From Trypanosoma brucei (Eukaryota), in the NCBI GenBank assembly GCA_000002445.1, contig CM000208.1, forward strand, positions 1,632,001 to 1,696,000: a DNA stretch of 64,000 nucleotides, written 5' to 3'. Shown in pieces: positions 3,981 through 64,000 of this stretch (positions are counted from its first letter, which is position 1; each line of letters begins with the position of its first letter). Position numbers and translations under genes: made by a program. Under the pieces are notes generated by a model that was not told the DNA's origin, made no database searches, and saw only the letters and a program-made list of their open reading frames with translations.

Positions 3981-6900
3981 TGAGACTCAAGTTTCCTGTT
4001 TGTAGAACTTACATTGTCGACCCCCTTTCCGTTCTATGCCTACGAGTGCCAGCAGCGAGAGGGTATATATACGCACATATAAGCTTCTTTCTTTTATCTC
4101 GCATTTTTGATTTTAACACCGCTCCGTTGTATTTAGGTGTGGGTTAGTATTTAGTTTAAAATTCTTTCAAGTCCTCTCAACTCAGCCAGGGTCGTAAAGA
4201 GCAAGACACAGAGGGGAAAGCTGCCCTATAATCGCCTGTGGCGCATTTTCATGAGTCCTCATTAGGTGTTCCTGCGCCAGCGGCCAAAACATTGCATCAT
4301 TCCGTCGCCGTATGGAACCAACAATTGTGAAAAAAAAAAAGGATTTAATCGGGGGATCCCCTTGGAGCAGATCACTGTTATGAGGTTTATTATGAGTGTT
4401 GCGAACAGGGAAACAGCTGGTGATGTTTATAGACGTTCTGCTTTGGTATTGAGTATATGATTGCTGTACCAACTGCCATGAGGCAGTCATTAATACTTTT
4501 TTTGACTTTTAATTCGTTCTTTGATCAAAAGTGTACGTGTATGGAATCATCTTGAATATTTGGAGAATTAATCATACGTCCGGAAGATTTGAATATAGTA
4601 ACTTCTTCTACCAGAGACCGAAATACCGGGATGTGTGATTTTATGCGGTTGCCGCTGGGAGCACGCTTCTATGCGTGCCTTTTACGAGGGCGCCTACGTT
4701 GTTGCAAGTGTGATCTGTGCGGCATTTACTCGTACAGCGGAGAGCGGGGATATCGCTTCTGGGGTATGCGGGAACGGGACATTGAATGCCTTCTTTTCAT
4801 CGTTAACACTCAACTTATTGAACATCTGTAGATGTCAAAGGGTGCCGATGCCGACTGATCATCGAGATAGCGACGGAGTTACCGTTGTTCCCTGGAGTGA
4901 TGTCCGATTTTACCAAATATGAGAGGAGGAGGTCTGTGTTTTCTCTTTTGACCGGACCGGTTATGAAATGAGTGATTTACCACTGCATTCAGCATGTGCA
5001 ATGACAGCAGTAAGGTTTGTAACTCCGCTTAAATCACCACGAGTATGTGAGTGCTCGTGTGATATGTTGTACTGCGCAAGAAAGAAACACGTGGACCCAA
5101 TTCCTGCCGTATCGACCCTCGGCAAAAACGTTTCGAGCACCTCTTCGTTAAATATACGCTTGTGGATGGGCTTGAACGAGAGCGTTCGGCATCAAGATAT
5201 ATGTTTCCTGTGTAGGTAAAGACAATAGATTCGAAGTTGACGTTTCCAGAAGTGTGCAACACGCTGTGGGAAGATTCCACTGGAAGCTGCATAATTTTGT
5301 TATGTACAGATGCCGTAGGTTCATTCGGTTGCTTCTAGAACCTCGTTGGAGGATTAGATAGGCATACAGGGAGTACGCCGTTGCTTGCTCGAGGTTATAG
5401 TGCACCTCCTGTTGACACGAACGGACATACGCACGTGTGTGAACACGAAGTGCCCTTCAAACCTTAAGGATTCGATGTTTCAGTCTACTTTATCATGCTG
5501 AGGGGTTAAACTGACCTATGCGTTTTTGCACTTGGGTGTGGTTTTAGAATTCTTTGAGAGGCGGGATATTAGCATGCAGTGCCTCTGTGCTCTATATCTT
5601 CCATGCACATCCGGTCTGGTGAATGACCCTATCTCTTTACTACGCGGTGTCATGCGGCTTATACTGACAGTTGTTAACTCTGGTGCATCCTGCTGGCGTG
5701 TTAATGGCCCTCGTTGAGCGGTGAGATGTGGAGCTCCCCTCCTTTTCAAGTGGTTCTGTAAATGGTGGCTAATCGTAACTCATTCTACAGATTTGCAGCT
5801 ATGTTTTTTCCGCAGGCGCGCTGTGCAGAGATGTGTGATGCTTACAGGTGGATACCACATACTGCTCCGTTGCTGTGCGGGTTATGCTTGGGATGCAGAC
5901 ATGGAAGGGTTGGGGAATACTGACTTCCACGATGTGGGTGGCGTTAACGCTGACGAAGAAAAATATTGTTTTTGTAGATTGATTGTCAAACGAGCTGCGC
6001 GGGTGGCGTGGTGGGGGAAGGGCGTTGTTTTATTCTCTGTGTCGCTCAAGCGCTAGATCATGCACTTGAAGGAGTGTCCACCAGCGTCATCGGTGGGGTG
6101 GCTGCGCCCTTCGTTGACCATCTACATGTTTGGGTCGAAATCACTGGCGTTGTCGTCTGCTGTATTCGTGTTGGATTGCTTTACGATGGGGCGGAAGCAA
6201 CGACTCCTCTCAGCAGTGGTAAATGTTCCTCTGACGTTGCGTCTGATGCTGTATTTCTCAGCTTCATACAAGGGGGAGGAACCGAGATTACCACCATCTA
6301 CATGTGTTCTTGGGTCTTCACAGGGCAACAATTTTCTTCTTTTACCCGGCGCCTTTGCGGAGAGTGGCTGCACCACGTTCTTCCCAGGTCGAGAGGGCTT
6401 AATGAGTGAATTACAGGATGAATTGTGGCTACAGTTGCCGTCGAGGCTACTGATTTTAGCTAGATTAGATTTAGCGAACTTTTTATTTGCAGTTGTAGGT
6501 CGTTTGCCGAATAGTGGGATCAACCTCTTTCAGCAAAGGCCCCCTTCATCACTGGCAGTTTTACCCAAACGTTGCATGGGCATGACTCTTGTTGCCCTTA
6601 CAACGTTGTAACTCCTCGCGGAAATGTCTCGATTGTGTCTCTTTCGTATGGACACTTCATTTGGAGGAGGTTTTATCCCTTTTTTCTGATAAATTGATTT
6701 GTTGCAGCAACCTCGTCGTCCCCCAACATGAGTTGCACGGATCAATATTAAAGTGGAAAGAAGGGGTGCTACGACGCAGTGCTTTTGGTCGATGTCGGTA
6801 AGGTATCGCTTTGCTTCGCACTACAGGTTTTTTGTTTGGGGGTATTGCGCGGACGGTGTGTTTGTGTGTGTGTGAAAAGACTATGGGGGTAGCGAAGAAG

Positions 6901-7440: not shown

Positions 7441-8460
7441 ATGGTGGATAAACTAACCCCACCATTCGTTCCTCCGTTTCAGCACACGAAAATGCCTGCA
7501 GTGCCGTGCCGGGCAAGCAAAGGGCATCATCAGGTTCAGCTGCAGCACTCCGTGATAACGTTTGGTTCACCAAATGTGGAGGATGGTTCAAGATTCTTCA
7601 GGCAGGTAGTCGAAGGCGTGCGCACAGGTTCAGAGCGAGTGCTACCAAAGGATGAAAGTAGACGATGCCTCAGTGGTGAGAGCGATGGCGCGACTAGTCG
7701 AAGGTTACAGCAGCTGAATACTGACCTTCAGCAGGCGCTACAGAAGCTACGGCAGAGGGACCGGGAAGAAACTAAGCTACGACGAAGGTTGTCTGTAGTT
7801 CAACTCAAGCTAGAGGAAGCGGCTGAGCGTCACAGTGCTACGATAGAACACGTCCTCGGGCTGATGGACGTGTACGGATCACGTATGGAGGAACAGAGGA
7901 TGGAGCTTCAGCGATTGCGCGCAAAGGTAAATAACTGTGATAAAACCTCCGAAGGGCTTAGAAACGAGGGGGTAATCAGTGCTCCAGTTGGAGTCCGTGG
8001 GTTGAAGGCTAGTGCTGTGCAGGCAGAGAATGAAAGCCTGAAGAATCGCGTTAAGTCACTCACTGATGAGAGGGAGGAGTTGAGGAAAATGACACAAAGG
8101 CTACAGGATGAAAAGGAGGAGAACCTACAAACTTTTTCCAACATACGGAACAAGTTAACGGCCGATATCATGGATAAACAAGAACAAATACATCAAGCTA
8201 ACAAAAAATTGAAAGAGTTATCGGATGAAGCTGCGGCTAGGGATATCTTGGTTCAACAAGTGCGACTTTTCGTGCAAATGGTTTGCCAGCCTGATTTCCA
8301 CGTGGTTAAGGACACCTCTCTCCAACCAGTCGACCGGAGCAGGACCGAACCAACAGGTTTTGTTTTAGTTCCCCTGACGCTGATGCTGCAGGGTTACTCT
8401 CTACTTTCAAACGAAGACCGCGATGACCTTGTAGAACTGTACCGGCAACGGCTCACTTGA
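7441..8460 (+). CDS. hypothetical coiled-coil protein
   Basis: 339-aa ATG-initiated ORF on the coding strand of the transcription unit. The central region is rich in heptad-like E/K/R/L/Q repeats (LQQALQKLRQRDREETKLRRRL...). No recognisable catalytic domain. Confidence 0.4.
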   Translation: MVDKLTPPFVPPFQHTKMPAVPCRASKGHHQVQLQHSVITFGSPNVEDGSRFFRQVVEGVRTGSERVLPKDESRRCLSGESDGATSRRLQQLNTDLQQALQKLRQRDREETKLRRRLSVVQLKLEEAAERHSATIEHVLGLMDVYGSRMEEQRMELQRLRAKVNNCDKTSEGLRNEGVISAPVGVRGLKASAVQAENESLKNRVKSLTDEREELRKMTQRLQDEKEENLQTFSNIRNKLTADIMDKQEQIHQANKKLKELSDEAAARDILVQQVRLFVQMVCQPDFHVVKDTSLQPVDRSRTEPTGFVLVPLTLMLQGYSLLSNEDRDDLVELYRQRLT

Positions 8461-47143: not shown

Positions 47144-47792
47144 GCGATGGGCGATATTTGGCTCTCATCTCTGTGTGATGACATCACTAAGCGTTTCTGA
47201 CGGAATTCGTATGCTGAACACATAACAAACGCAAATCACTCCACACTGATAACAGCTCCGCAGGCCCCAATCCCTTACCGTACATTCGCAATGAGGCAAA
47301 CGATGAAAAAATAAATGGATCGCTGACTCTGAACACATTATCTGATTGACAGGACATTTCTTTGACTATACCTCTGAATTGTGCCCCACTTCTCTCTCCA
47401 TTCCTCCCTCTTTCTGTTGGTTTCCCCCCCCCCCCCTCCTGCTGCTGCCACTACTATTCCTCCAGGTGTCTATTGCTCCTGGTGCATTACCATTAACTGC
47501 GGTATGATTACAAAGCAATTTTATCCTCACCCTGACGTGAGTGGTTCTGTGACGAGAAACCGATTGACAATAATACCAAGATCTGCTATGAGCCCGTGAT
47601 GTTGTGTGCAGACGCTGTATTAATCCCGCCCCGTATGGCAAACTCATGCCCGGGGCGATTCATGCACAGCGGAGATGCGTATTGTCTCACTTCCCCTTAT
47701 CGTAAAGTCCACTTTCTTTCCTGTTGCGTGCCTGTTTCAAATGTACGCCCGCGCGGTTTTGTGAATGAGGCTCCCCATTCCGCTGTTGTTGC
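47144..47792. repeat. 649-bp interspersed direct repeat, copy A (upstream of BUD31)
   Basis: Near-identical to 49156..49803 at an offset of 2011-2012 bp. It contains a C13 homopolymer at 47424..47436. The flanks diverge immediately outside the boundaries. Confidence 0.9.
47168..47255 (+). ncRNA. candidate C/D-box snoRNA inside repeat copy A (speculative)
   Basis: A perfect C box GUGAUGA sits at 47175..47181. CUGA D'/D-like boxes lie at 47197, 47214 and 47246. The ~85-nt span is typical of trypanosomatid C/D snoRNAs. The same motifs occur in copy B at +2012. No terminal stem or rRNA complementarity was verified. Confidence 0.2.
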
Positions 47793-48104
47793 GGGGTAAT
47801 CTGGTTTTGTGCGTGGCGGGTGCTTGCGCTGCGTTTAGTAGACGTTAACCGATGGAGTTGTTACAAACCCCCCATTTATTCGGATTCGCTATTCCGCAGG
47901 GCGGTGGTTTAGCTCTTCGAGCACATTTGTAGTGCGGGGCGGTGCTGTTACTGCTACTGAGGTGGCTCACTGCTTGTTTAACCACGGTGCCCACTTTTTT
48001 TTCCTTTTTTTGACACCTTAGCTCTCCTCTTCTTCACTTTCGCGTTCTTCCGTTTTCAGGTTAGGAGCTGTGTAGTAAACCAACGAGTATTTTTTTTTTT
48101 AGGG

Positions 48105-48830
48105 ATGCCGAAAATCCGCCCAGGAATGAAGCGGCCGCCACCGGGGTTTGAAAAAATCAATGACAAACTTGACGAATACGACGCAGAGATGCGACTGGCT
48201 CTTTCTGAGGACCCTTCCCAGGCTGAACTACCGGTGCCGTCCAAACGAAAGGACAAACAAAATAAGGTTGAAGCGACTAAAGACAAGCATGCTCAAAGTG
48301 TACAGCGCGGTGATGGTGGTGTAGCGGGCCACTCGGACGGCGAATTAGACAAACCGGAACCCCCCTTGTGGCGAGTGGCGCGAATCAATCGGGAGCGCAC
48401 ACGTTATGTGTTTAATGCGTGTTTCCGAGAGCGGATAATTGCGGAGGAGGTTCTCGACTACTGCTGTGAGATGAATTTCATTGATGCTGGTCTCGTTCGG
48501 CGCTGGTCACTTGCTGGGTATGAACGGCTGTGTTGCAATACTTGCTGCTTACCGGGAGCTGCTAGTGAAGCGGCTCGTATGGTGAATAAGTTTGCAAACC
48601 GTGACAAAAAAGATCGGCGCACTAATGGTAATGATGACACCGGGGGTACCTGCATTTGCCGCGTGCCCGATGAGAAGCGTCTGGCCAAGGCGTTCACTAG
48701 GTGTATGGTGTGTGGGTGCTCTGGTTGTGGTTCGGGGGGTAAGCGCAAGCACGACACCGAGGAAAAAGATAGTGTATCCGACATGAAAAAAGTACGCACG
48801 GACGACTACGAGGTGAAATCGGGTAAATAG
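48105..48830 (+). CDS. BUD31: BUD31/G10 pre-mRNA splicing factor
   Basis: N-terminal MPKIRPGMKRPPPGFEKINDKLDEYDAEMR and C-terminal Cys cluster CCNTCC...CICRVPDEKRL...CMVCGCSGCGSG match the G10/BUD31 family. Confidence 0.9.
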   Translation: MPKIRPGMKRPPPGFEKINDKLDEYDAEMRLALSEDPSQAELPVPSKRKDKQNKVEATKDKHAQSVQRGDGGVAGHSDGELDKPEPPLWRVARINRERTRYVFNACFRERIIAEEVLDYCCEMNFIDAGLVRRWSLAGYERLCCNTCCLPGAASEAARMVNKFANRDKKDRRTNGNDDTGGTCICRVPDEKRLAKAFTRCMVCGCSGCGSGGKRKHDTEEKDSVSDMKKVRTDDYEVKSGK

Positions 48831-49155
48831 TGAAGGATTTGACATTTTTTTTTTCCCCCTCCCGGAAAGTCGTTGCACCAATTGTGAATGAACTTCTTAT
48901 TCTTCGTATGCCCCCTCCCTTTTGTTGGGGTACCCACAAACCCCATCTGTTTCAAAACGGAGCATCCTTTTGTGCCTTTCATTTGCGCACCAACTGCAAT
49001 GGTAAATATTCTTTCACTGCCCATTTTGTGTATGAGAAAGTAAGATTGCTGGCTGGTAGCTCAGTAGCTCAGACAAACTTGTCGCTGTCGGCCTGCAGAA
49101 CGGCTCACGCCGGTGCCACGTTCGGGCGGGGGAACGGTGAAATTGGCTTCATTAC

Positions 49156-49803
49156 GCGATGGGCGATATTTGGCTCTCATCTCTGTGTGATGACATCACT
49201 AAGCGTTTCTGACGGAATTCGTATGCTGAACACATAACAAACGCAAATCACTCCACACTGATAACAGCTCCGCAGGCCCCAATCCCTTACCGTACATTCG
49301 CAATGAGGCAAACGATGAAAAAATAAATGGATCGCTGACTCTGAACACATTATCTGATTGACAGGACATTTCTTTGACTATACCTCTGAATTGTGCCCCA
49401 CTTCTCTCTCCATTCCTCCCTCTTTCTGTTGGTTTCCCCCCCCCCCCTCCTGCTGCTGCCACTACTATTCCTCCAGGTGTCTATTGCTCCTGGTGCATTA
49501 CCATTAACTGCGGTATGATTACAAAGCAATTTTATCCTCACCCTGACGTGAGTGGTTCTGTGACGAGAAACCGATTGACAATAATACCAAGATCTGCTAT
49601 GAGCCCGTGATGTTGTGTGCAGACGCTGTATTAATCCCGCCCCGTATGGCAAACTCATGCCCGGGGCGATTCATGCACAGCGGAGATGCGTATTGTCTCA
49701 CTTCCCCTTATCGTAAAGTCCACTTTCTTTCCTGTTGCGTGCCTGTTTCAAATGTACGCCCGCGCGGTTTTGTGAATGAGGCTCCCCATTCCGCTGTTGT
49801 TGC
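49156..49803. repeat. 649-bp interspersed direct repeat, copy B (downstream of BUD31)
   Basis: Near-identical to 47144..47792. The poly-C run is C12 here versus C13 in copy A. Confidence 0.9.
49180..49267 (+). ncRNA. candidate C/D-box snoRNA inside repeat copy B (speculative)
   Basis: Same GUGAUGA (49187..49193) and CUGA motifs as copy A. Confidence 0.2.
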
Positions 49804-59257: not shown

Positions 59258-60727
59258 ATGATGCAAGGATTTCCCTCCTTAGGGGAAAAGGACCCAGCTG
59301 CCAAGCCACCAGCAGAGGGAAAACCGACCTCAGCTTCGGGAGAGAAACAACCGAGCGAAGCAGTACAGGGAATACCGCTATACCAAGGTGATGGTGATGA
59401 TAAAGAAGGATTGAAACGTTTTGTGGTACAGGGGTATAAGGATGTGTGGGCTGCAATATTATACATTTTATGCATTTTCGCCATCGCTGGAATCGGAGTA
59501 CACGCAATGTGGTCGAGAGGCTCCTCCGAAGAAAAACAAGAGGTTAAAAAAACAACAGCAGAAAATGAGCCTTCAAATTCAAAGTCCCTTTGGAGTGTCT
59601 ACTTTCTTGTTGGTGTGGCTGCTGCCGCTTCCATCGGTGCGGCGTCCGTGTCGTTTCTACTGATGCGTATGTTTCCACGCAAGACAATTCTTTTCGCAAA
59701 CATTGCCGCCATAATTATAAACATCATTTCAGCTTTGCTAGCAATATTATCAGGACACATGGTAAGCGGTATCCTCATGATGACATTATGTGCCCTGCAC
59801 ATAATGTGGTTTTTCTTTGCACGGCACCGAATTCCTTTTGCTGCAGAACTTCTCAAGGCCTCTATCGATGTGTTGTCTGGCTACAAGGCGGTATATTTAT
59901 TCAATGTCATGTTATGTGTTGGTTGCACAGGATTACTTATGCTGTGGGCAAACGCTTTTATGTGGACGTATCAAAGAAGTCAAGCGCAAGATTCATCATT
60001 CTCCGGTATAATTTACCTTTTCCTTATGCTTTTCTTATTTTGGACATCGCAGGTGACAACTAATCTGATGCATGTAACAACTGCTGGACTTACTGCTACA
60101 TGGTACTTTGCTGGTAAGGAGAATATGCCAAAGAATCCCACCCTCGCCTCATTCAAGCGAGGTACCACCACAAGCTTCGGCTCCATTTGCTTTGGGTCAC
60201 TGCTTGTGGCAATTATCCGTCTCATACGGTGGCTCGTGTCAACCGCAGAAGACAGTGAACATGAAATATTACGCTGTGTATTCCTTTGTATTATTGGTTG
60301 TTTGGAGAGGCTGATGGAATACTTCAACACATACGCATTTGTTCATGTTGCCATCTATGGTTGTGGGTACATTGAAGCAGCGAAAATGACATGGGAGTTG
60401 TGTAAACAGTGTGTGTTTTCTGCCCTGTTCAATGACACTCTGATTGATGTAACACTCGGGCTACTTGCTACTTGTGGTTCGCTACTGGTTGGTAGTGTTT
60501 TTGGTTTTCTCTTAAAATCCTGGGCAGCATTCGCGCTTGGTTTTGCCGTTTCTATATTGGTTCACCTCCTCATATTCTCCCCCGTGGGTAGTGCTGTAAC
60601 CACCTTATTCGTATGTTATGCGGAAGTGCCTGAGGGCCTTGAGCACTCATCCCCTGACTTGTACGCGGCTCTTCAGAGAACTGACCAAAACGGCACATCA
60701 AATGGAGCAGCACCTCCACGTGTGTAA
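59258..60727 (+). CDS. CTL/Pns1 (choline transporter-like, Choline_transpo domain) membrane protein, tandem copy 1
   Basis: Multi-pass membrane protein. The C-terminal block CFGSLLVAIIRLIRWLV...RCVFLCIIGCLERLMEYFNTYAFVHVAIYGCGYIEAAKMTWELCKQ parallels the CTL1/Pns1 conserved core (C..C..CCLWCLEKCL.YLN.NAY...AI.G..FC.SAKDAF). Confidence 0.75.
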   Translation: MMQGFPSLGEKDPAAKPPAEGKPTSASGEKQPSEAVQGIPLYQGDGDDKEGLKRFVVQGYKDVWAAILYILCIFAIAGIGVHAMWSRGSSEEKQEVKKTTAENEPSNSKSLWSVYFLVGVAAAASIGAASVSFLLMRMFPRKTILFANIAAIIINIISALLAILSGHMVSGILMMTLCALHIMWFFFARHRIPFAAELLKASIDVLSGYKAVYLFNVMLCVGCTGLLMLWANAFMWTYQRSQAQDSSFSGIIYLFLMLFLFWTSQVTTNLMHVTTAGLTATWYFAGKENMPKNPTLASFKRGTTTSFGSICFGSLLVAIIRLIRWLVSTAEDSEHEILRCVFLCIIGCLERLMEYFNTYAFVHVAIYGCGYIEAAKMTWELCKQCVFSALFNDTLIDVTLGLLATCGSLLVGSVFGFLLKSWAAFALGFAVSILVHLLIFSPVGSAVTTLFVCYAEVPEGLEHSSPDLYAALQRTDQNGTSNGAAPPRV

Positions 60728-61407
60728 AACTTCTTAAGCTCATGCATATAAGGAGGATATGTGTTTGTCTCTCTTCTGCAAAAACTTTCCCTCCCATACC
60801 CAATTTCGCACACTCGCACCGTGTGAAGAAGAGTCAAATATCTTTTGTTTTTGATTCACTATATATAATGCACTGAAGCGTGTGTTATGCATGCAAATAA
60901 ATTGATAACATCGCTGACTCTTCTTTTTGTTCTATTATATTACTCTGTTCGATTTGCTCTTGACTATTTTGTATTTTCTTTCCGTTTCATGTGATGGATG
61001 CGAGGGACATAACCACAACATATTGAATGTGTCGCGGTGTAAACTGCTCTGTTGTGAGCGATCGGTATTGTGTTAGTATTTTTGTTCCAAGTGTTGAGGA
61101 AGTTGAATAGAGTCCTGATGCAGTCCACTCATGCGGTAAGCAGTGATGCGCCTTAGTGTGAGAATTCCTTTGATACTGTGTGATTTGCACACTTCCATTC
61201 TTCTTCGTCACTGGAAGCTGTTGCTACTGCATACTAATGCATCATCATTTCCTATTTCCTTTCCTCTTCCATAATTTTCCATTTTCTCTGTTTTTTAATC
61301 AAACAAATAAGATATATTGCAAGTGTACGCAATTGCTATCCAGCAACAAAGGGCTATAGACACTATTATCTCAGTGATAAGGTATTGTTTATTTCTGAAG
61401 AAGGACG

Positions 61408-62880
61408 ATGAACAAGCAATACGGAACAGAAACAAATCGCTACGACTATGATGTGTGGCAGGAAAATCAGCGGAATTGTCGGCAGGAATGTTCACCACAA
61501 GCTGTGCCGCTACAAGGAATACCGCTATACCAAGGTGATGGTGATGATAAAGAAGAGCTGAAACGTTTTGTGGTACAAGGGTATAAGGATGTGTGGGCTG
61601 CAATATTATACATTTTATGCATTCTTGCAACTATTGGGCTTGGAATATATAATATTGTGAAGCCTGATGCTTCAGGAGAAGAAGAAGAGGAAAGTGTCGT
61701 ATCGGTTAAATCATCTAACCCGTTTTCTGGTGTGTTTAAAAGTGTTTACATTTGGATTGCCGTTGCTGGTGGAATTGCCATAGCTGTGGCGTCGCTTTCC
61801 TTTCTCTTTATGAGGATGTTTCCTCGGAAGATTATTATTGTGGCAAATGTTGTCTCGATTATCATCAATATTGGAGGCGCCGCTGCCGCCATTGTGATGG
61901 GGGTGCTTCCACTTGGCATTGCTTTACTCATTATGTGCGCTATGCACATACTGTGGTTTTACTTTGCACGGCACCGAATTCCTTTTGCTGCAGAACTTCT
62001 CAAGGCCTCTATCGATGTGTTGTCTGGCTACAAGGCGGTATATTTATTCAATGTCATGTTATGTGTTGGTTGTGCGGGGTTTACCATATTATGGGGGTAC
62101 GCAGCTGTTCCTTCACTAGAAACTGCCAGTAACAAAGGTGACAGTGGGGCACTAGCGGTTTTGCTACTTCTTTTCCTTATGTTGGTTTTTTTTTGGTCAT
62201 CTCAAGTTACTGGAAATCTGATGCATGTAACAACTGCTGGACTTACTGCTACATGGTACTTTGCTGGTAAGGAGAATATGCCAAAGAATCCCACCCTCGC
62301 CTCATTCAAGCGAGGTACCACCACAAGCTTCGGCTCCATTTGCTTTGGGTCACTGCTTGTGGCAATTATCCGTCTCATACGGTGGCTCGTGTCAACCGCA
62401 GAAGGTAGTGAACATGAAATATTACGCTGTATATTCCTTTGTATTATTGGTTGTTTGGAGAGTTTGATGGAATACTTCAACACATACGCATTTGTTCATG
62501 TTGCCATCTATGGTTGTGGGTACATTGAAGCAGCGAAAATGACATGGGAGTTGTGTAAACAGTGTGTGTTTTCTGCCCTGTTCAATGACACTCTAATTGA
62601 TGTAACACTGAATCTACTTGTTACTTGTGGTTCGCTACTGGTTGGTAGTGTTGTCGGTCTACTCTTCAGATCCTGGGTAGCATTCGCGCTTGGTTTTGCC
62701 GTTTCTATATTGGTTCACCTCCTCATATTCTCCCCCGTAACCAGTGCTGTAACCACCTTATTCGTATGTTATGCGGAAGTGCCTGAGGGCCTTGAGCACT
62801 CATCCCCTGACTTGTACGCGGCTCTTCAGAGAACTGACCAAAACGGCACATCAAATGGAGCAGCACCTCCACGTGTGTAA
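61408..62880 (+). CDS. CTL/Pns1 family membrane protein, tandem copy 2
   Basis: The C-terminal ~300 aa are almost identical to copy 1. The N-terminal ~130 aa are divergent. The 3' flanking sequence is identical to that of copy 1. Confidence 0.75.
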   Translation: MNKQYGTETNRYDYDVWQENQRNCRQECSPQAVPLQGIPLYQGDGDDKEELKRFVVQGYKDVWAAILYILCILATIGLGIYNIVKPDASGEEEEESVVSVKSSNPFSGVFKSVYIWIAVAGGIAIAVASLSFLFMRMFPRKIIIVANVVSIIINIGGAAAAIVMGVLPLGIALLIMCAMHILWFYFARHRIPFAAELLKASIDVLSGYKAVYLFNVMLCVGCAGFTILWGYAAVPSLETASNKGDSGALAVLLLLFLMLVFFWSSQVTGNLMHVTTAGLTATWYFAGKENMPKNPTLASFKRGTTTSFGSICFGSLLVAIIRLIRWLVSTAEGSEHEILRCIFLCIIGCLESLMEYFNTYAFVHVAIYGCGYIEAAKMTWELCKQCVFSALFNDTLIDVTLNLLVTCGSLLVGSVVGLLFRSWVAFALGFAVSILVHLLIFSPVTSAVTTLFVCYAEVPEGLEHSSPDLYAALQRTDQNGTSNGAAPPRV

Positions 62881-63589
62881 AACTTCTTAAGCTCATGCAT
62901 ATAAGGAGGATATGTGTTTGTCTCTCTTCTGCAAAAACTTTCCCTCCCATACCCAATTTCGCACACTCGCACCGTGTGAAGAAGAGTCAAATATCTTTTG
63001 TTTTTGATTCACTATATATAATGCACTGAAGCGTGTGTTATGTATGCATTTTACCGGCTTCACCATGATAAACCACATACTTGATGTAGTAGGTGAAATT
63101 AGATGCCGCAGTATCTGGTCGTGTGTAGCAGTAAATATATTAATAAATAACGACTCTTTATTATCGTAACTGCGCAAAAAGTGTTTAACATGAGCGATAT
63201 TTTTTATGATACGTACGACATTATCGTGAGCGATCGGTATTGTGTTAGTATTTTTGTTCCGTGTGTTGAGGAAGTTGAATAGAGTCCTGATGCAGTCCAC
63301 TCATGCGGTAAGCAGTGATGCGCCTTAGTGTGAAAATTCCTTTGATACTGTGTGATTTGCACACTTCCATTCTTCTTCGTCACTGGAAGCTGTTTCTACT
63401 GTATACTAATGCATCATCATTTCCTATTTCCTTTCCTCCTCCATCATTTTCCATTTTCTCTGTTTTGTAATCAAACAAATAAGATATATTGCAAGTGTAC
63501 GCAATTGCTATCCAGCAACAAAGGGCTATAGACACTATTATCTCAGTGATAAGGTATTGTTTATTTCTGAAGAAGGACGATGAACAAGC

Positions 63590-64000
63590 AACACGGAACA
63601 GAAACAAATCGTTACGACTATGATGTGTCGCAGAAGGATCGGCGAAATTCTGATTCTCGGGAGTGTTCACCACATGCTGTGCCGCTACAAGGAATACCGC
63701 TATACCAAGGTGAAGGTAATAATCAAGAAGGATTGAAACGTTTTGTGGTACAAGGGTACAAGGATGTGTGGGCTGCAATATTATACATTTTATGCATTCT
63801 TGCAACTATTGGGCTTGGAATATATAATATTATGCGGAAGGATTCTTCGATGAAGGATGTAGAAAGCACTAATACAACAGCAGAAAATGAGCCTTCAAAT
63901 TCAAAGTCCCTTTGGAGTGTCTACTTTCTTGTTGGCGTGGCTGCTGCCGCTTCCATCGGTGCGGCGTCCGTGTCGTTTCTACTGATGCAGAAGTTTCCAC
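63590..64000 (+). CDS. CTL/Pns1 family membrane protein, tandem copy 3 (5' part only, runs off the window)
   Basis: ATG at 63590 sits in the same context as copy 2 (identical 5' flank). The first ~80 codons resemble copy 2. It then switches to the copy-1-type sequence NTTAENEPSNSKSLWSVYFLVGVAAAASIGAASVSFLLM. Confidence 0.65.

What the first reader, a model, noticed from the sequence alone, without database searches (positions are those of the whole stretch)
47144..49803. Two near-identical 649-bp direct repeats bracketing the BUD31 gene; possible snoRNA cluster units
Segments 47144..47792 and 49156..49803 are essentially identical, differing only by a C13 versus C12 homopolymer. They lie 2.0 kb apart, with BUD31 between them, and the flanks diverge immediately outside the boundaries. 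Each copy carries C/D-box-like motifs on the coding strand. One group is GUGAUGA at 47175/49187 followed by CUGA at +22, +39 and +71. A second group is CGAUGA..CUGA..CUGA around 47300-47345. Spacing and length are typical of trypanosomatid C/D snoRNAs, whose genes are usually arranged as repeated clusters inside polycistronic units. The very high identity implies recent duplication or ongoing homogenisation. The spacing could also allow recombinational loss or duplication of BUD31.
Basis: partly seen in the sequence, partly recalled or inferred. Interest (0 to 1): 0.55.

Follow-up and report, generated by a model that had tools for sequence, protein, structure and literature searches.

The report
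Known trypanosome snoRNA cluster, two copies
The two identical 649-bp repeats on either side of the BUD31 gene are the two copies of a published Trypanosoma brucei small-nucleolar-RNA gene cluster (TB10Cs2''), which guides four known chemical modifications of ribosomal RNA, so the finding is real but ordinary.

Summary
Segments 47144-47792 and 49156-49803 are identical except for a C13 versus C12 run, and BUD31 lies between them.

The window is T. brucei TREU927 chromosome 10. Two stretches of each repeat match, base for base, candidates 28 and 29 of Doniger et al. 2010 (PMC3091756). That paper named the cluster TB10Cs2'' (C1-C4, present twice; GeneDB Tb927_10_v5.snoRNA.0100-0107).

Each repeat carries three C/D snoRNAs and one single-hairpin H/ACA-like snoRNA. 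I checked their guides against the published T. brucei rRNA sequence and modification map. They pair as expected with SSU Gm1700, LSU-beta Am1201, LSU-alpha Gm1605 and LSU-beta pseudouridine 578.

One modest addition comes from the comparison with other species. A copy on each side of BUD31 is present in T. vivax, T. cruzi, T. rangeli, T. grayi and T. theileri. Copies are 96-99.9% identical within a genome but only 63-81% identical between species. This points to an old duplication kept uniform by gene conversion.

Novelty: already known. Interest: low.

The parts
47144..47792 (+). Repeat copy A: one unit of the snoRNA cluster TB10Cs2'' (C1-C2-polypyrimidine tract-C3-H4, plus 31 bp of leading and 114 bp of trailing sequence)
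49156..49803 (+). Repeat copy B: second unit of the same cluster, identical except C12 instead of C13
47175..47249 (+). TB10Cs2''C1, a C/D snoRNA, given from box C to box D (copy B 49187-49261). Boxes: C GUGAUGA 47175-47181, D' CUGA 47197-47200, C' UGCUGA 47212-47217, D CUGA 47246-47249. The D guide 47231-47244 pairs with SSU G1697-U1710 (13 Watson-Crick pairs plus 1 G-U), and the fifth nucleotide is Gm1700.
   Evidence: The guide CAAAUCACUCCAC is invariant in four species. rRNA sequence and Gm1700 assignment are.
47301..47377 (+). TB10Cs2''C2, a C/D snoRNA (copy B 49313-49389). Boxes: C CGAUGA 47301-47306, D' CUGA 47329-47332, C'-like UGAUUGA 47343-47349, D CUGA 47374-47377. Guide bases 47317-47325, within the conserved block 47313-47328, pair with LSU-beta C1200-C1208 (9 contiguous bp), and the fifth nucleotide is Am1201.
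   Evidence: AAAUGGAUCGCUGAC is invariant in six species. rRNA context and Am1201 are.
47385..47470 (+). C/T-rich spacer between C2 and C3, including the C13/C12 run (47424-47436). It is pyrimidine-rich at the same position in all six species, but its sequence is not conserved.
   Evidence: run length is 13/12, 11/10 and 9/9 in three T. brucei-group assemblies
47504..47591 (+). TB10Cs2''C3, a C/D snoRNA (copy B 49515-49602). Boxes: C AUGAUUA 47504-47510, D' CUGA 47532-47535, C' UGACGA 47550-47555, D AUGA 47588-47591. The D guide 47575-47586 pairs with LSU-alpha G1602-U1613 (12 bp), and the fifth nucleotide is Gm1605. The D' guide 47523-47531 pairs with SSU G1628-U1636 (9 bp).
   Evidence: Exact match to candidate 28 of PMC3091756. 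rRNA context is.
47610..47678 (+). TB10Cs2''H4, first published as 'C4': a single-hairpin H/ACA-like snoRNA (copy B 49621-49689). Lower stem 47613-47618 with 47666-47671; pocket strands 47619-47626 and 47658-47665; AGA box 47673-47675. The pocket pairs 7+7 bp around LSU-beta pseudouridine 578.
   Evidence: Exact match to candidate 29 of PMC3091756. Fold -28.7 kcal/mol, z -3.3. Conserved structure; rRNA context.
48105..48830 (+). BUD31/G10 gene, single copy, bracketed by the two cluster copies

Best explanation
Each 649-bp repeat is one copy of the T. brucei snoRNA gene cluster TB10Cs2''. Each copy encodes, on the + strand, three box C/D snoRNAs (C1, C2, C3) and one single-hairpin H/ACA-like snoRNA (H4, first published as C4). 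By inference from established trypanosomatid biology, the RNAs are cut out of the long RNA polymerase II polycistronic transcript that also carries erv25, BUD31 and the dynein light chain gene. They then assemble into fibrillarin/NOP58 or CBF5 particles. Their guide sequences pair with pre-rRNA to place Gm1700 on the small subunit, Am1201 and pseudouridine 578 on LSU-beta, and Gm1605 on LSU-alpha. The two copies, one on each side of BUD31, are an old feature of the genus Trypanosoma. They are kept nearly identical within each genome by gene conversion between the direct repeats.
For: Identity:
- The window proteins match T. brucei TREU927 chromosome 10 entries exactly.
- Window 47504-47591 and 49621-49689 match exactly the sequences of candidates 28 and 29 of Doniger et al. 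2010. The published chromosome coordinates are offset from window coordinates by the same 1,632,000 in both cases.
- That paper reports two further C/D snoRNAs in the flank. It lists GeneDB ids for C1-C4 twice (snoRNA.0100-0103 and 0104-0107), and tested the RNAs by primer extension under NOP58/CBF5 silencing.

Guides, checked against the T. brucei rRNA sequence and modification map in PMC10662448:
- C1 forms 13 Watson-Crick pairs plus 1 G-U, and the fifth position is Gm1700.
- C2 forms 9 bp, and the fifth position is Am1201.
- C3 forms 12 bp, and the fifth position is Gm1605.
- H4 forms 7+7 bp around pseudouridine 578, with the AGA box 15 nt from the upper stem.
- These are the same assignments that paper gives for TB10Cs2''C1, C2, C3 and ppH4.

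Conservation:
- In six Trypanosoma species the boxes, these guides and the H4 stems and pocket are invariant or nearly so. The spacers and the unused guide positions diverge.

Copy behaviour:
- A covariance model of H4 finds two or three copies around BUD31 in every Trypanosoma locus examined.
- Within-genome copy identity is 96-99.9%, against 63-81% between species.
- At 47380 both TREU927 copies have T, while both copies in T. b. gambiense and in GCA_003543875.1 have G.
Against: - Rfam has no model for these RNAs, so the library scan was silent.
- No compensatory double substitutions were seen in the H4 stems, only G-U changes. The structural support therefore comes from conservation and folding energy, not covariation.
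- The C2 duplex is short (9 contiguous bp).
- For the D' guide of C3, the fifth-nucleotide rule points to A1632. The literature lists Um1630, which was detected by RiboMeth-seq only and not by mass spectrometry. This guide is also not conserved in T. cruzi or T. grayi.
- Expression, processing and gene conversion were not observed here. They rest on the cited papers and on inference.
Confidence: 0.96

Rival explanations
1. The repeats are copies of a dispersed repeat or a transposon relic (RIME/ingi/SIRE-like) that happen to contain box-like motifs.
For: Nothing beyond the fact that it is a repeat. Short motifs such as CUGA are common by chance.
Against: There are only two copies in 64 kb, both on the same strand. 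The copies sit at the orthologous position in six species, and conservation is confined to the snoRNA boxes and guides. The sequences match published, experimentally tested snoRNAs exactly.
Confidence: 0.01
2. The second copy is an assembly artefact: a collapsed or mis-joined repeat in the TREU927 chromosome 10 sequence.
For: A short T. equiperdum contig (L002, 1773 bp) begins and ends inside the two repeats. This shows that the repeats do break short-read assemblies.
Against: Three independent T. brucei-group assemblies and five other species all show a copy on each side of BUD31, with unique flanks.
Confidence: 0.01
3. The near-identity reflects a recent duplication in T. brucei, as the reader first suggested, and not homogenisation of an old duplication. 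The matching arrangements in other species arose independently.
For: 99.8% identity is what a very young duplicate would show. T. rangeli and T. theileri have extra copies, so duplication of this unit does recur.
Against: A copy between BUD31 and the dynein light chain gene, plus one upstream of BUD31, is found in all six species. Six independent duplications to the same two places are far less likely than one ancestral duplication with gene conversion. The shared T-to-G difference in both copies between T. brucei subspecies shows the copies changing together.
Confidence: 0.08

Closest known systems
T. brucei snoRNA cluster TB10Cs2'' (Doniger et al. 2010, BMC Genomics 11:615; GeneDB Tb927_10_v5.snoRNA.0100-0107)
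   Same: It is this cluster. The C3 and C4/H4 sequences and their coordinates match exactly, the cluster is listed as two copies, and the targets agree with later modification maps.
   Different: Nothing differs in sequence. My reading classes the fourth RNA as H/ACA-like (hairpin plus AGA, with no C/D boxes). The 2010 paper called it C/D ('C4'). Later papers already list it among the H/ACA guides as TB10Cs2ppH4/ppC4.
Other T. brucei snoRNA clusters (Liang et al. 2005 nomenclature, e.g. TB10Cs2, TB9Cs2, TB11Cs4)
   Same: They are mixed clusters of C/D and single-hairpin H/ACA-like genes, repeated, and lie on the coding strand of a polycistronic unit. TB10Cs2C1, for example, is listed three times about 475 bp apart.
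   Different: Those repeats are head-to-tail arrays. Here the two units are 2 kb apart with a protein-coding gene (BUD31) between them.
Concerted evolution of tandem gene arrays in T. brucei (Jackson 2007, BMC Evol Biol 7:54, PMC1855330; from title and abstract only)
   Same: Both concern duplicated copies within T. brucei polycistronic units. From the title, abstract and term counts, that paper analyses sequence variation among tandem duplicates and discusses gene conversion and concerted evolution. I did not read its results.
   Different: That work concerns protein-coding arrays. Here the homogenised unit is a non-coding snoRNA cluster split around a single-copy gene that is not itself duplicated.

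Membership tests
Box C/D snoRNA | Box C (RUGAUGA) near the 5' end and box D (CUGA) near the 3' end, with internal C'/D' boxes | tested here: met
   C1 has GUGAUGA/CUGA and C2 has CGAUGA (UGAUGA in other species)/CUGA. C3 has AUGAUUA/AUGA, which is non-canonical, but the G-to-U change in box C is matched by a C-to-A change in box D, so that pair is kept. All boxes are conserved in six species.
Box C/D snoRNA | A guide of about 9 nt or more directly upstream of D or D', complementary to rRNA, with the fifth paired nucleotide 2'-O-methylated | tested here: met
   C1 gives Gm1700 (13+1 bp), C2 gives Am1201 (9 bp) and C3 gives Gm1605 (12 bp). All were checked against the rRNA sequence and map of PMC10662448. 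The D' guide of C3 is inconclusive: the rule gives A1632 and the literature lists Um1630.
Box C/D snoRNA | Expressed as a stable small RNA that depends on NOP58/fibrillarin | not testable with these tools
   Reported by Doniger et al. 2010 using primer extension under NOP58 silencing. Not re-examined here.
Trypanosomatid H/ACA-like snoRNA | A single hairpin with an internal pseudouridylation pocket, followed by an AGA box 3 nt from the 3' end | tested here: met
   The fold has a 6-bp lower stem, an 8+8-nt pocket and a 7+4-bp upper stem, followed by G, AGA and UGC. Energy is -28.7 kcal/mol with z -3.3. The same structure is found in six species with no broken helices.
Trypanosomatid H/ACA-like snoRNA | Both pocket strands pair with rRNA around an unpaired U-N, with the box about 14-16 nt from the target position | tested here: met
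   The pocket pairs 7+7 bp with LSU-beta G571-A577 and G580-U586, leaving pseudouridine 578 and G579 unpaired. There are 15 nt from the upper stem to AGA. Position 578 is a mapped pseudouridine assigned to this RNA.
Trypanosomatid H/ACA-like snoRNA | Dependence on CBF5 | not testable with these tools
   The 2010 paper classed this RNA as C/D, while later maps list it as the H/ACA guide. The experimental basis was not examined here.
Cluster TB10Cs2'' | Sequence and chromosomal position identical to the published entries | tested here: met
   There are exact 88-nt and 69-nt matches. Both published coordinates equal the window coordinate plus 1,632,000.

The most novel reading that the evidence does not exclude
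The bracket of one snoRNA-cluster copy on each side of single-copy BUD31 dates back to the common ancestor of Trypanosoma. It has been kept uniform within each genome by gene conversion ever since, while crossovers that would delete BUD31 are removed by selection. I found no description of this in the literature I could search. It may also mean that the conserved pyrimidine tract inside the unit takes part in processing the neighbouring mRNAs.
Probability: 0.75. Interest if true: 0.3.

Novelty: already known. Interest (0 to 1): 0.12.

Why it matters
For genome annotation, the result closes the finding. The repeats are the two annotated copies of a validated snoRNA cluster that guides four mapped rRNA modifications. 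They are not a new element.

The comparative result adds a small, clean example of concerted evolution of non-coding genes split around an unduplicated protein gene over the whole history of a genus. This is relevant to how trypanosomes keep snoRNA dosage without promoters. It also bears on experiments: a snoRNA knock-out at this locus must remove both copies, and recombination between the copies would excise BUD31.

Tried and rejected
- Rfam gave no hits in the whole window at gathering thresholds, and only chance-level hits in E-value mode. One of those was a weak H/ACA match that happened to lie on H4. Rfam simply has no model for these RNAs.
- There are no tRNAs in the window.
- A full-text search for the sequences found nothing in main texts. 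They turned up only in a supplementary table.
- Liang et al. 2005 could not be retrieved by PubMed id or by a guessed PMC id.
- I first suspected cluster TB10Cs5, because one paper places it in the UTR of Tb10.6k15.1510. The only other papers that mention that gene id are two flagellum and paraflagellar-rod studies, which I did not open, and the TB10Cs5 targets did not fit the pocket. I dropped this lead.
- From memory I equated the C1 target with yeast 18S Gm1271. The T. brucei table shows that site is SSU 1676, and the C1 target is 24 nt downstream at Gm1700. I make no claim about yeast or human equivalents.
- For C2, taking the first CUGA as D' would predict Cm1207, which is not modified. 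The second CUGA predicts Am1201, which is modified.
- Reading the C3 box D as CUGC would predict Um1610, which is unmodified. I rejected it in favour of AUGA.
- ORFs overlapping the repeats were looked up and are not in the protein collection.
- A blastn search and a covariance-model search of three non-Trypanosoma BUD31 loci found no cluster copy.

Full report
**Observation**

Segment 47144-47792 (649 bp) and segment 49156-49803 (648 bp) are identical apart from a C13 versus C12 run at 47424-47436. The flanks lose all similarity immediately outside both boundaries. The copies are direct, both on the + strand, and 2012 bp apart. There is no other copy in the 64-kb window. The ORF between them (48105-48830, +) is BUD31 (PF01125, E 2.4e-38). 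Its neighbours are a DEAD-box helicase, an emp24/erv25 protein, a dynein light chain and an NSUN-type methyltransferase, all on the + strand.

**Source of the window**

Three of these proteins match entries from T. brucei brucei TREU927 exactly, on a 4.05-Mb record, which is chromosome 10.

**Identification**

The Rfam scan was silent, apart from a sub-threshold H/ACA hit at 47611-47720. That hit drew my attention to a hairpin with an internal loop followed by AGA.

The literature then settled the identity. Supplementary file 3 of Doniger et al. 2010 (BMC Genomics 11:615, PMC3091756) lists two relevant candidates:
- Candidate 28 lies at chromosome 10 positions 1679504-1679598, with the sequence ATGATTACAAAGC...CTGCTATGA.
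- Candidate 29 lies at 1681621-1681689, with the sequence AGACGCTGTATTAATCCC...GGAGATGC.

Both sequences occur exactly in the window, each once per repeat, at 47504 and 49515 and at 47610 and 49621. Both published coordinates equal the window coordinate plus 1,632,000.

The paper states that candidates 28 and 29 form a cluster and that two more C/D snoRNAs were found in its flanks. It names the four RNAs TB10Cs2''C1 to C4. It tested them by primer extension under NOP58 and CBF5 silencing. It also lists GeneDB ids for C1-C4 twice, Tb927_10_v5.snoRNA.0100-0103 and 0104-0107. The two repeats are therefore the two annotated copies of this cluster.

**Anatomy of one unit** (copy A coordinates; add 2012 up to the C run and 2011 after it for copy B)

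| RNA | Span | Boxes |
|---|---|---|
| C1 | 47175-47249 | C GUGAUGA, D' CUGA, C' UGCUGA, D CUGA |
| C2 | 47301-47377 | C CGAUGA, D' CUGA at 47329-47332, D CUGA |
| C3 | 47504-47591 | C AUGAUUA, D' CUGA, C' UGACGA, D AUGA |
| H4 | 47610-47678 | AGA box three nucleotides from the published 3' end |

- A C/T-rich spacer containing the C run lies at 47385-47470, between C2 and C3.
- In C3, the G-to-U change in box C and the C-to-A change in box D fall on positions that pair with each other, so the pair is kept.
- H4 has a 6-bp lower stem, an 8+8-nt internal loop and an upper stem. It folds at -28.7 kcal/mol with z -3.3 against shuffles.
- The three C/D RNAs are no more structured than shuffles, as expected for guides that must stay single-stranded.
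- H4 contains no C or D box. I read it as an H/ACA-like RNA although it was first published as 'C4'. Later papers already list it as the H/ACA guide TB10Cs2ppH4/ppC4.

**Guide test**

The supplementary data of Rajan et al. 2023 (Nat Commun 14:7462, PMC10662448) give a nucleotide-by-nucleotide table of T. brucei rRNA with mapped modifications and assigned snoRNAs. I checked each guide against it.

| Guide | Pairs with | Length | Modified position |
|---|---|---|---|
| C1, D guide | SSU G1697-U1710 | 13 Watson-Crick + 1 G-U | fifth from box D = Gm1700 |
| C2, guide upstream of the second CUGA | LSU-beta C1200-C1208 | 9 bp | fifth = Am1201 |
| C3, D guide | LSU-alpha G1602-U1613 | 12 bp | fifth = Gm1605 |
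| H4, pocket | LSU-beta G571-A577 and G580-U586 | 7+7 bp | pseudouridine 578 and G579 unpaired; AGA 15 nt from the upper stem |

- These are the same four sites that the paper assigns to TB10Cs2''C1, C2, C3 and ppH4.
- For C2, taking the first CUGA as D' would predict a methyl group at C1207, which is unmodified.
- One published assignment fits less well. The D' guide of C3 pairs with SSU G1628-U1636 (9 bp), so the fifth-nucleotide rule points to A1632.
- The table instead lists Um1630, seen by RiboMeth-seq only and not by mass spectrometry.
- That D' guide is also not conserved in T. cruzi or T. grayi.

**Comparative evidence**

I fetched BUD31 loci from the following:
- T. b. gambiense
- a second T. 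brucei-group assembly (GCA_003543875.1)
- T. equiperdum
- T. vivax
- T. cruzi
- T. theileri
- T. grayi
- T. rangeli

The order BUD31, dynein light chain, NSUN is conserved in all of these except the short T. equiperdum contig (L002), which carries only BUD31. Every one of those loci has a cluster copy between BUD31 and the dynein light chain gene and at least one copy upstream of BUD31. T. rangeli has two tandem upstream copies. T. theileri has an extra one further upstream. In T. grayi a GP63 gene lies between the upstream copy and BUD31.

Between species only the snoRNA parts are conserved. These are the boxes, the four guides named above and the H4 stems and pocket. The spacers, the D' guide of C1 and the region upstream of box D in C2 are free to vary.

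Within a genome the copies are 96.0-99.9% identical over 200-745 bp, spacers included. Between species identity is 63-81% over the alignable parts.

Within the T. brucei group, position 47380 is T in both TREU927 copies and G in both copies of the other two assemblies. Two other sites are polymorphic between copies in some assemblies. The C run is 13/12, 11/10 and 9/9. No difference falls inside a snoRNA.

The simplest reading is one duplication before the radiation of Trypanosoma, followed by continuing gene conversion. Three more distant BUD31 loci from unnamed sequencing runs have a different gene neighbourhood (MCM, BUD31, MFS transporter). They have no cluster copy by blastn or by a covariance model of H4.

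**Mechanism**

- Shown here: the sequence identity with published snoRNAs, the box and fold anatomy, the guide-target pairing at mapped modification sites, the conservation pattern, and the within-genome homogeneity.
- Taken from the cited papers: expression, dependence on NOP58/CBF5, and the existence of the modifications.
- Inferred from established knowledge of trypanosomatids: the RNAs are processed from the polycistronic RNA polymerase II transcript. Homogeneity comes from gene conversion between the direct repeats. Crossovers between them, which would excise BUD31, are presumably selected against.

**Rivals**

- A dispersed repeat or transposon relic is excluded by copy number, orthologous position and the pattern of conservation.
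- An assembly artefact is excluded by independent assemblies and species. A 1773-bp T. equiperdum contig that starts and ends inside the repeats does show that they break short-read assemblies.
- A recent T. brucei-specific duplication is unlikely, given the shared arrangement in six species.

**Verdict**

The feature is already known and annotated. The genus-wide bracket around BUD31 with concerted evolution is a modest addition. I did not find it described in the literature I could search, but it is an instance of a known process.

Noticed in passing
window 59258-64000: There is a tandem array of at least two full genes, plus the start of a third, encoding roughly 490-aa multi-pass membrane proteins. 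The period is about 2150-2175 bp and repeat blocks are 74-97% identical. The N-terminal regions of the two proteins differ, while the rest is nearly identical.
   Followed up: partly
window 47385-47470 and 49397-49481; same position in L004-L008: A pyrimidine-rich tract sits between snoRNAs C2 and C3 in all six Trypanosoma species, although its sequence is not conserved. In trypanosomes such tracts direct trans-splicing and the coupled upstream polyadenylation. It might therefore split the cluster between two RNA-processing units or define a host transcript for C3 and H4.
   Followed up: no
L003 5069-5527 (-), 6783-7109 (+), 7480-7797 (+): The T. b. gambiense record carries called 'genes' of 105-152 aa with no Pfam match. 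Two of them (5069-5527 and 7480-7797) overlap the cluster copies and the third lies in the spacer next to copy B. They are probably spurious ORFs. The T. b. gambiense BUD31 model is also shorter (205 aa) than the 241-aa TREU927 protein: residues 1-202 and 213-241 match in two separate pieces that are not in one reading frame, as if a frameshift lay between them.
   Followed up: partly
L008 325-1173 (T. rangeli); L006 1214-1666 (T. theileri); L007 2615-2798 (T. grayi): The number and spacing of upstream copies vary. T. rangeli has two tandem copies 495 bp apart. T. theileri has an extra partial copy about 4.2 kb further upstream. In T. grayi a GP63 (Peptidase_M8) gene separates the upstream copy from BUD31.
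   Followed up: partly
window 47523-47535 versus SSU 1628-1636: By the fifth-nucleotide rule, the D' guide of TB10Cs2''C3 points to SSU A1632. The published table assigns Um1630 to this snoRNA, and mass spectrometry found no modification there.
   Followed up: partly
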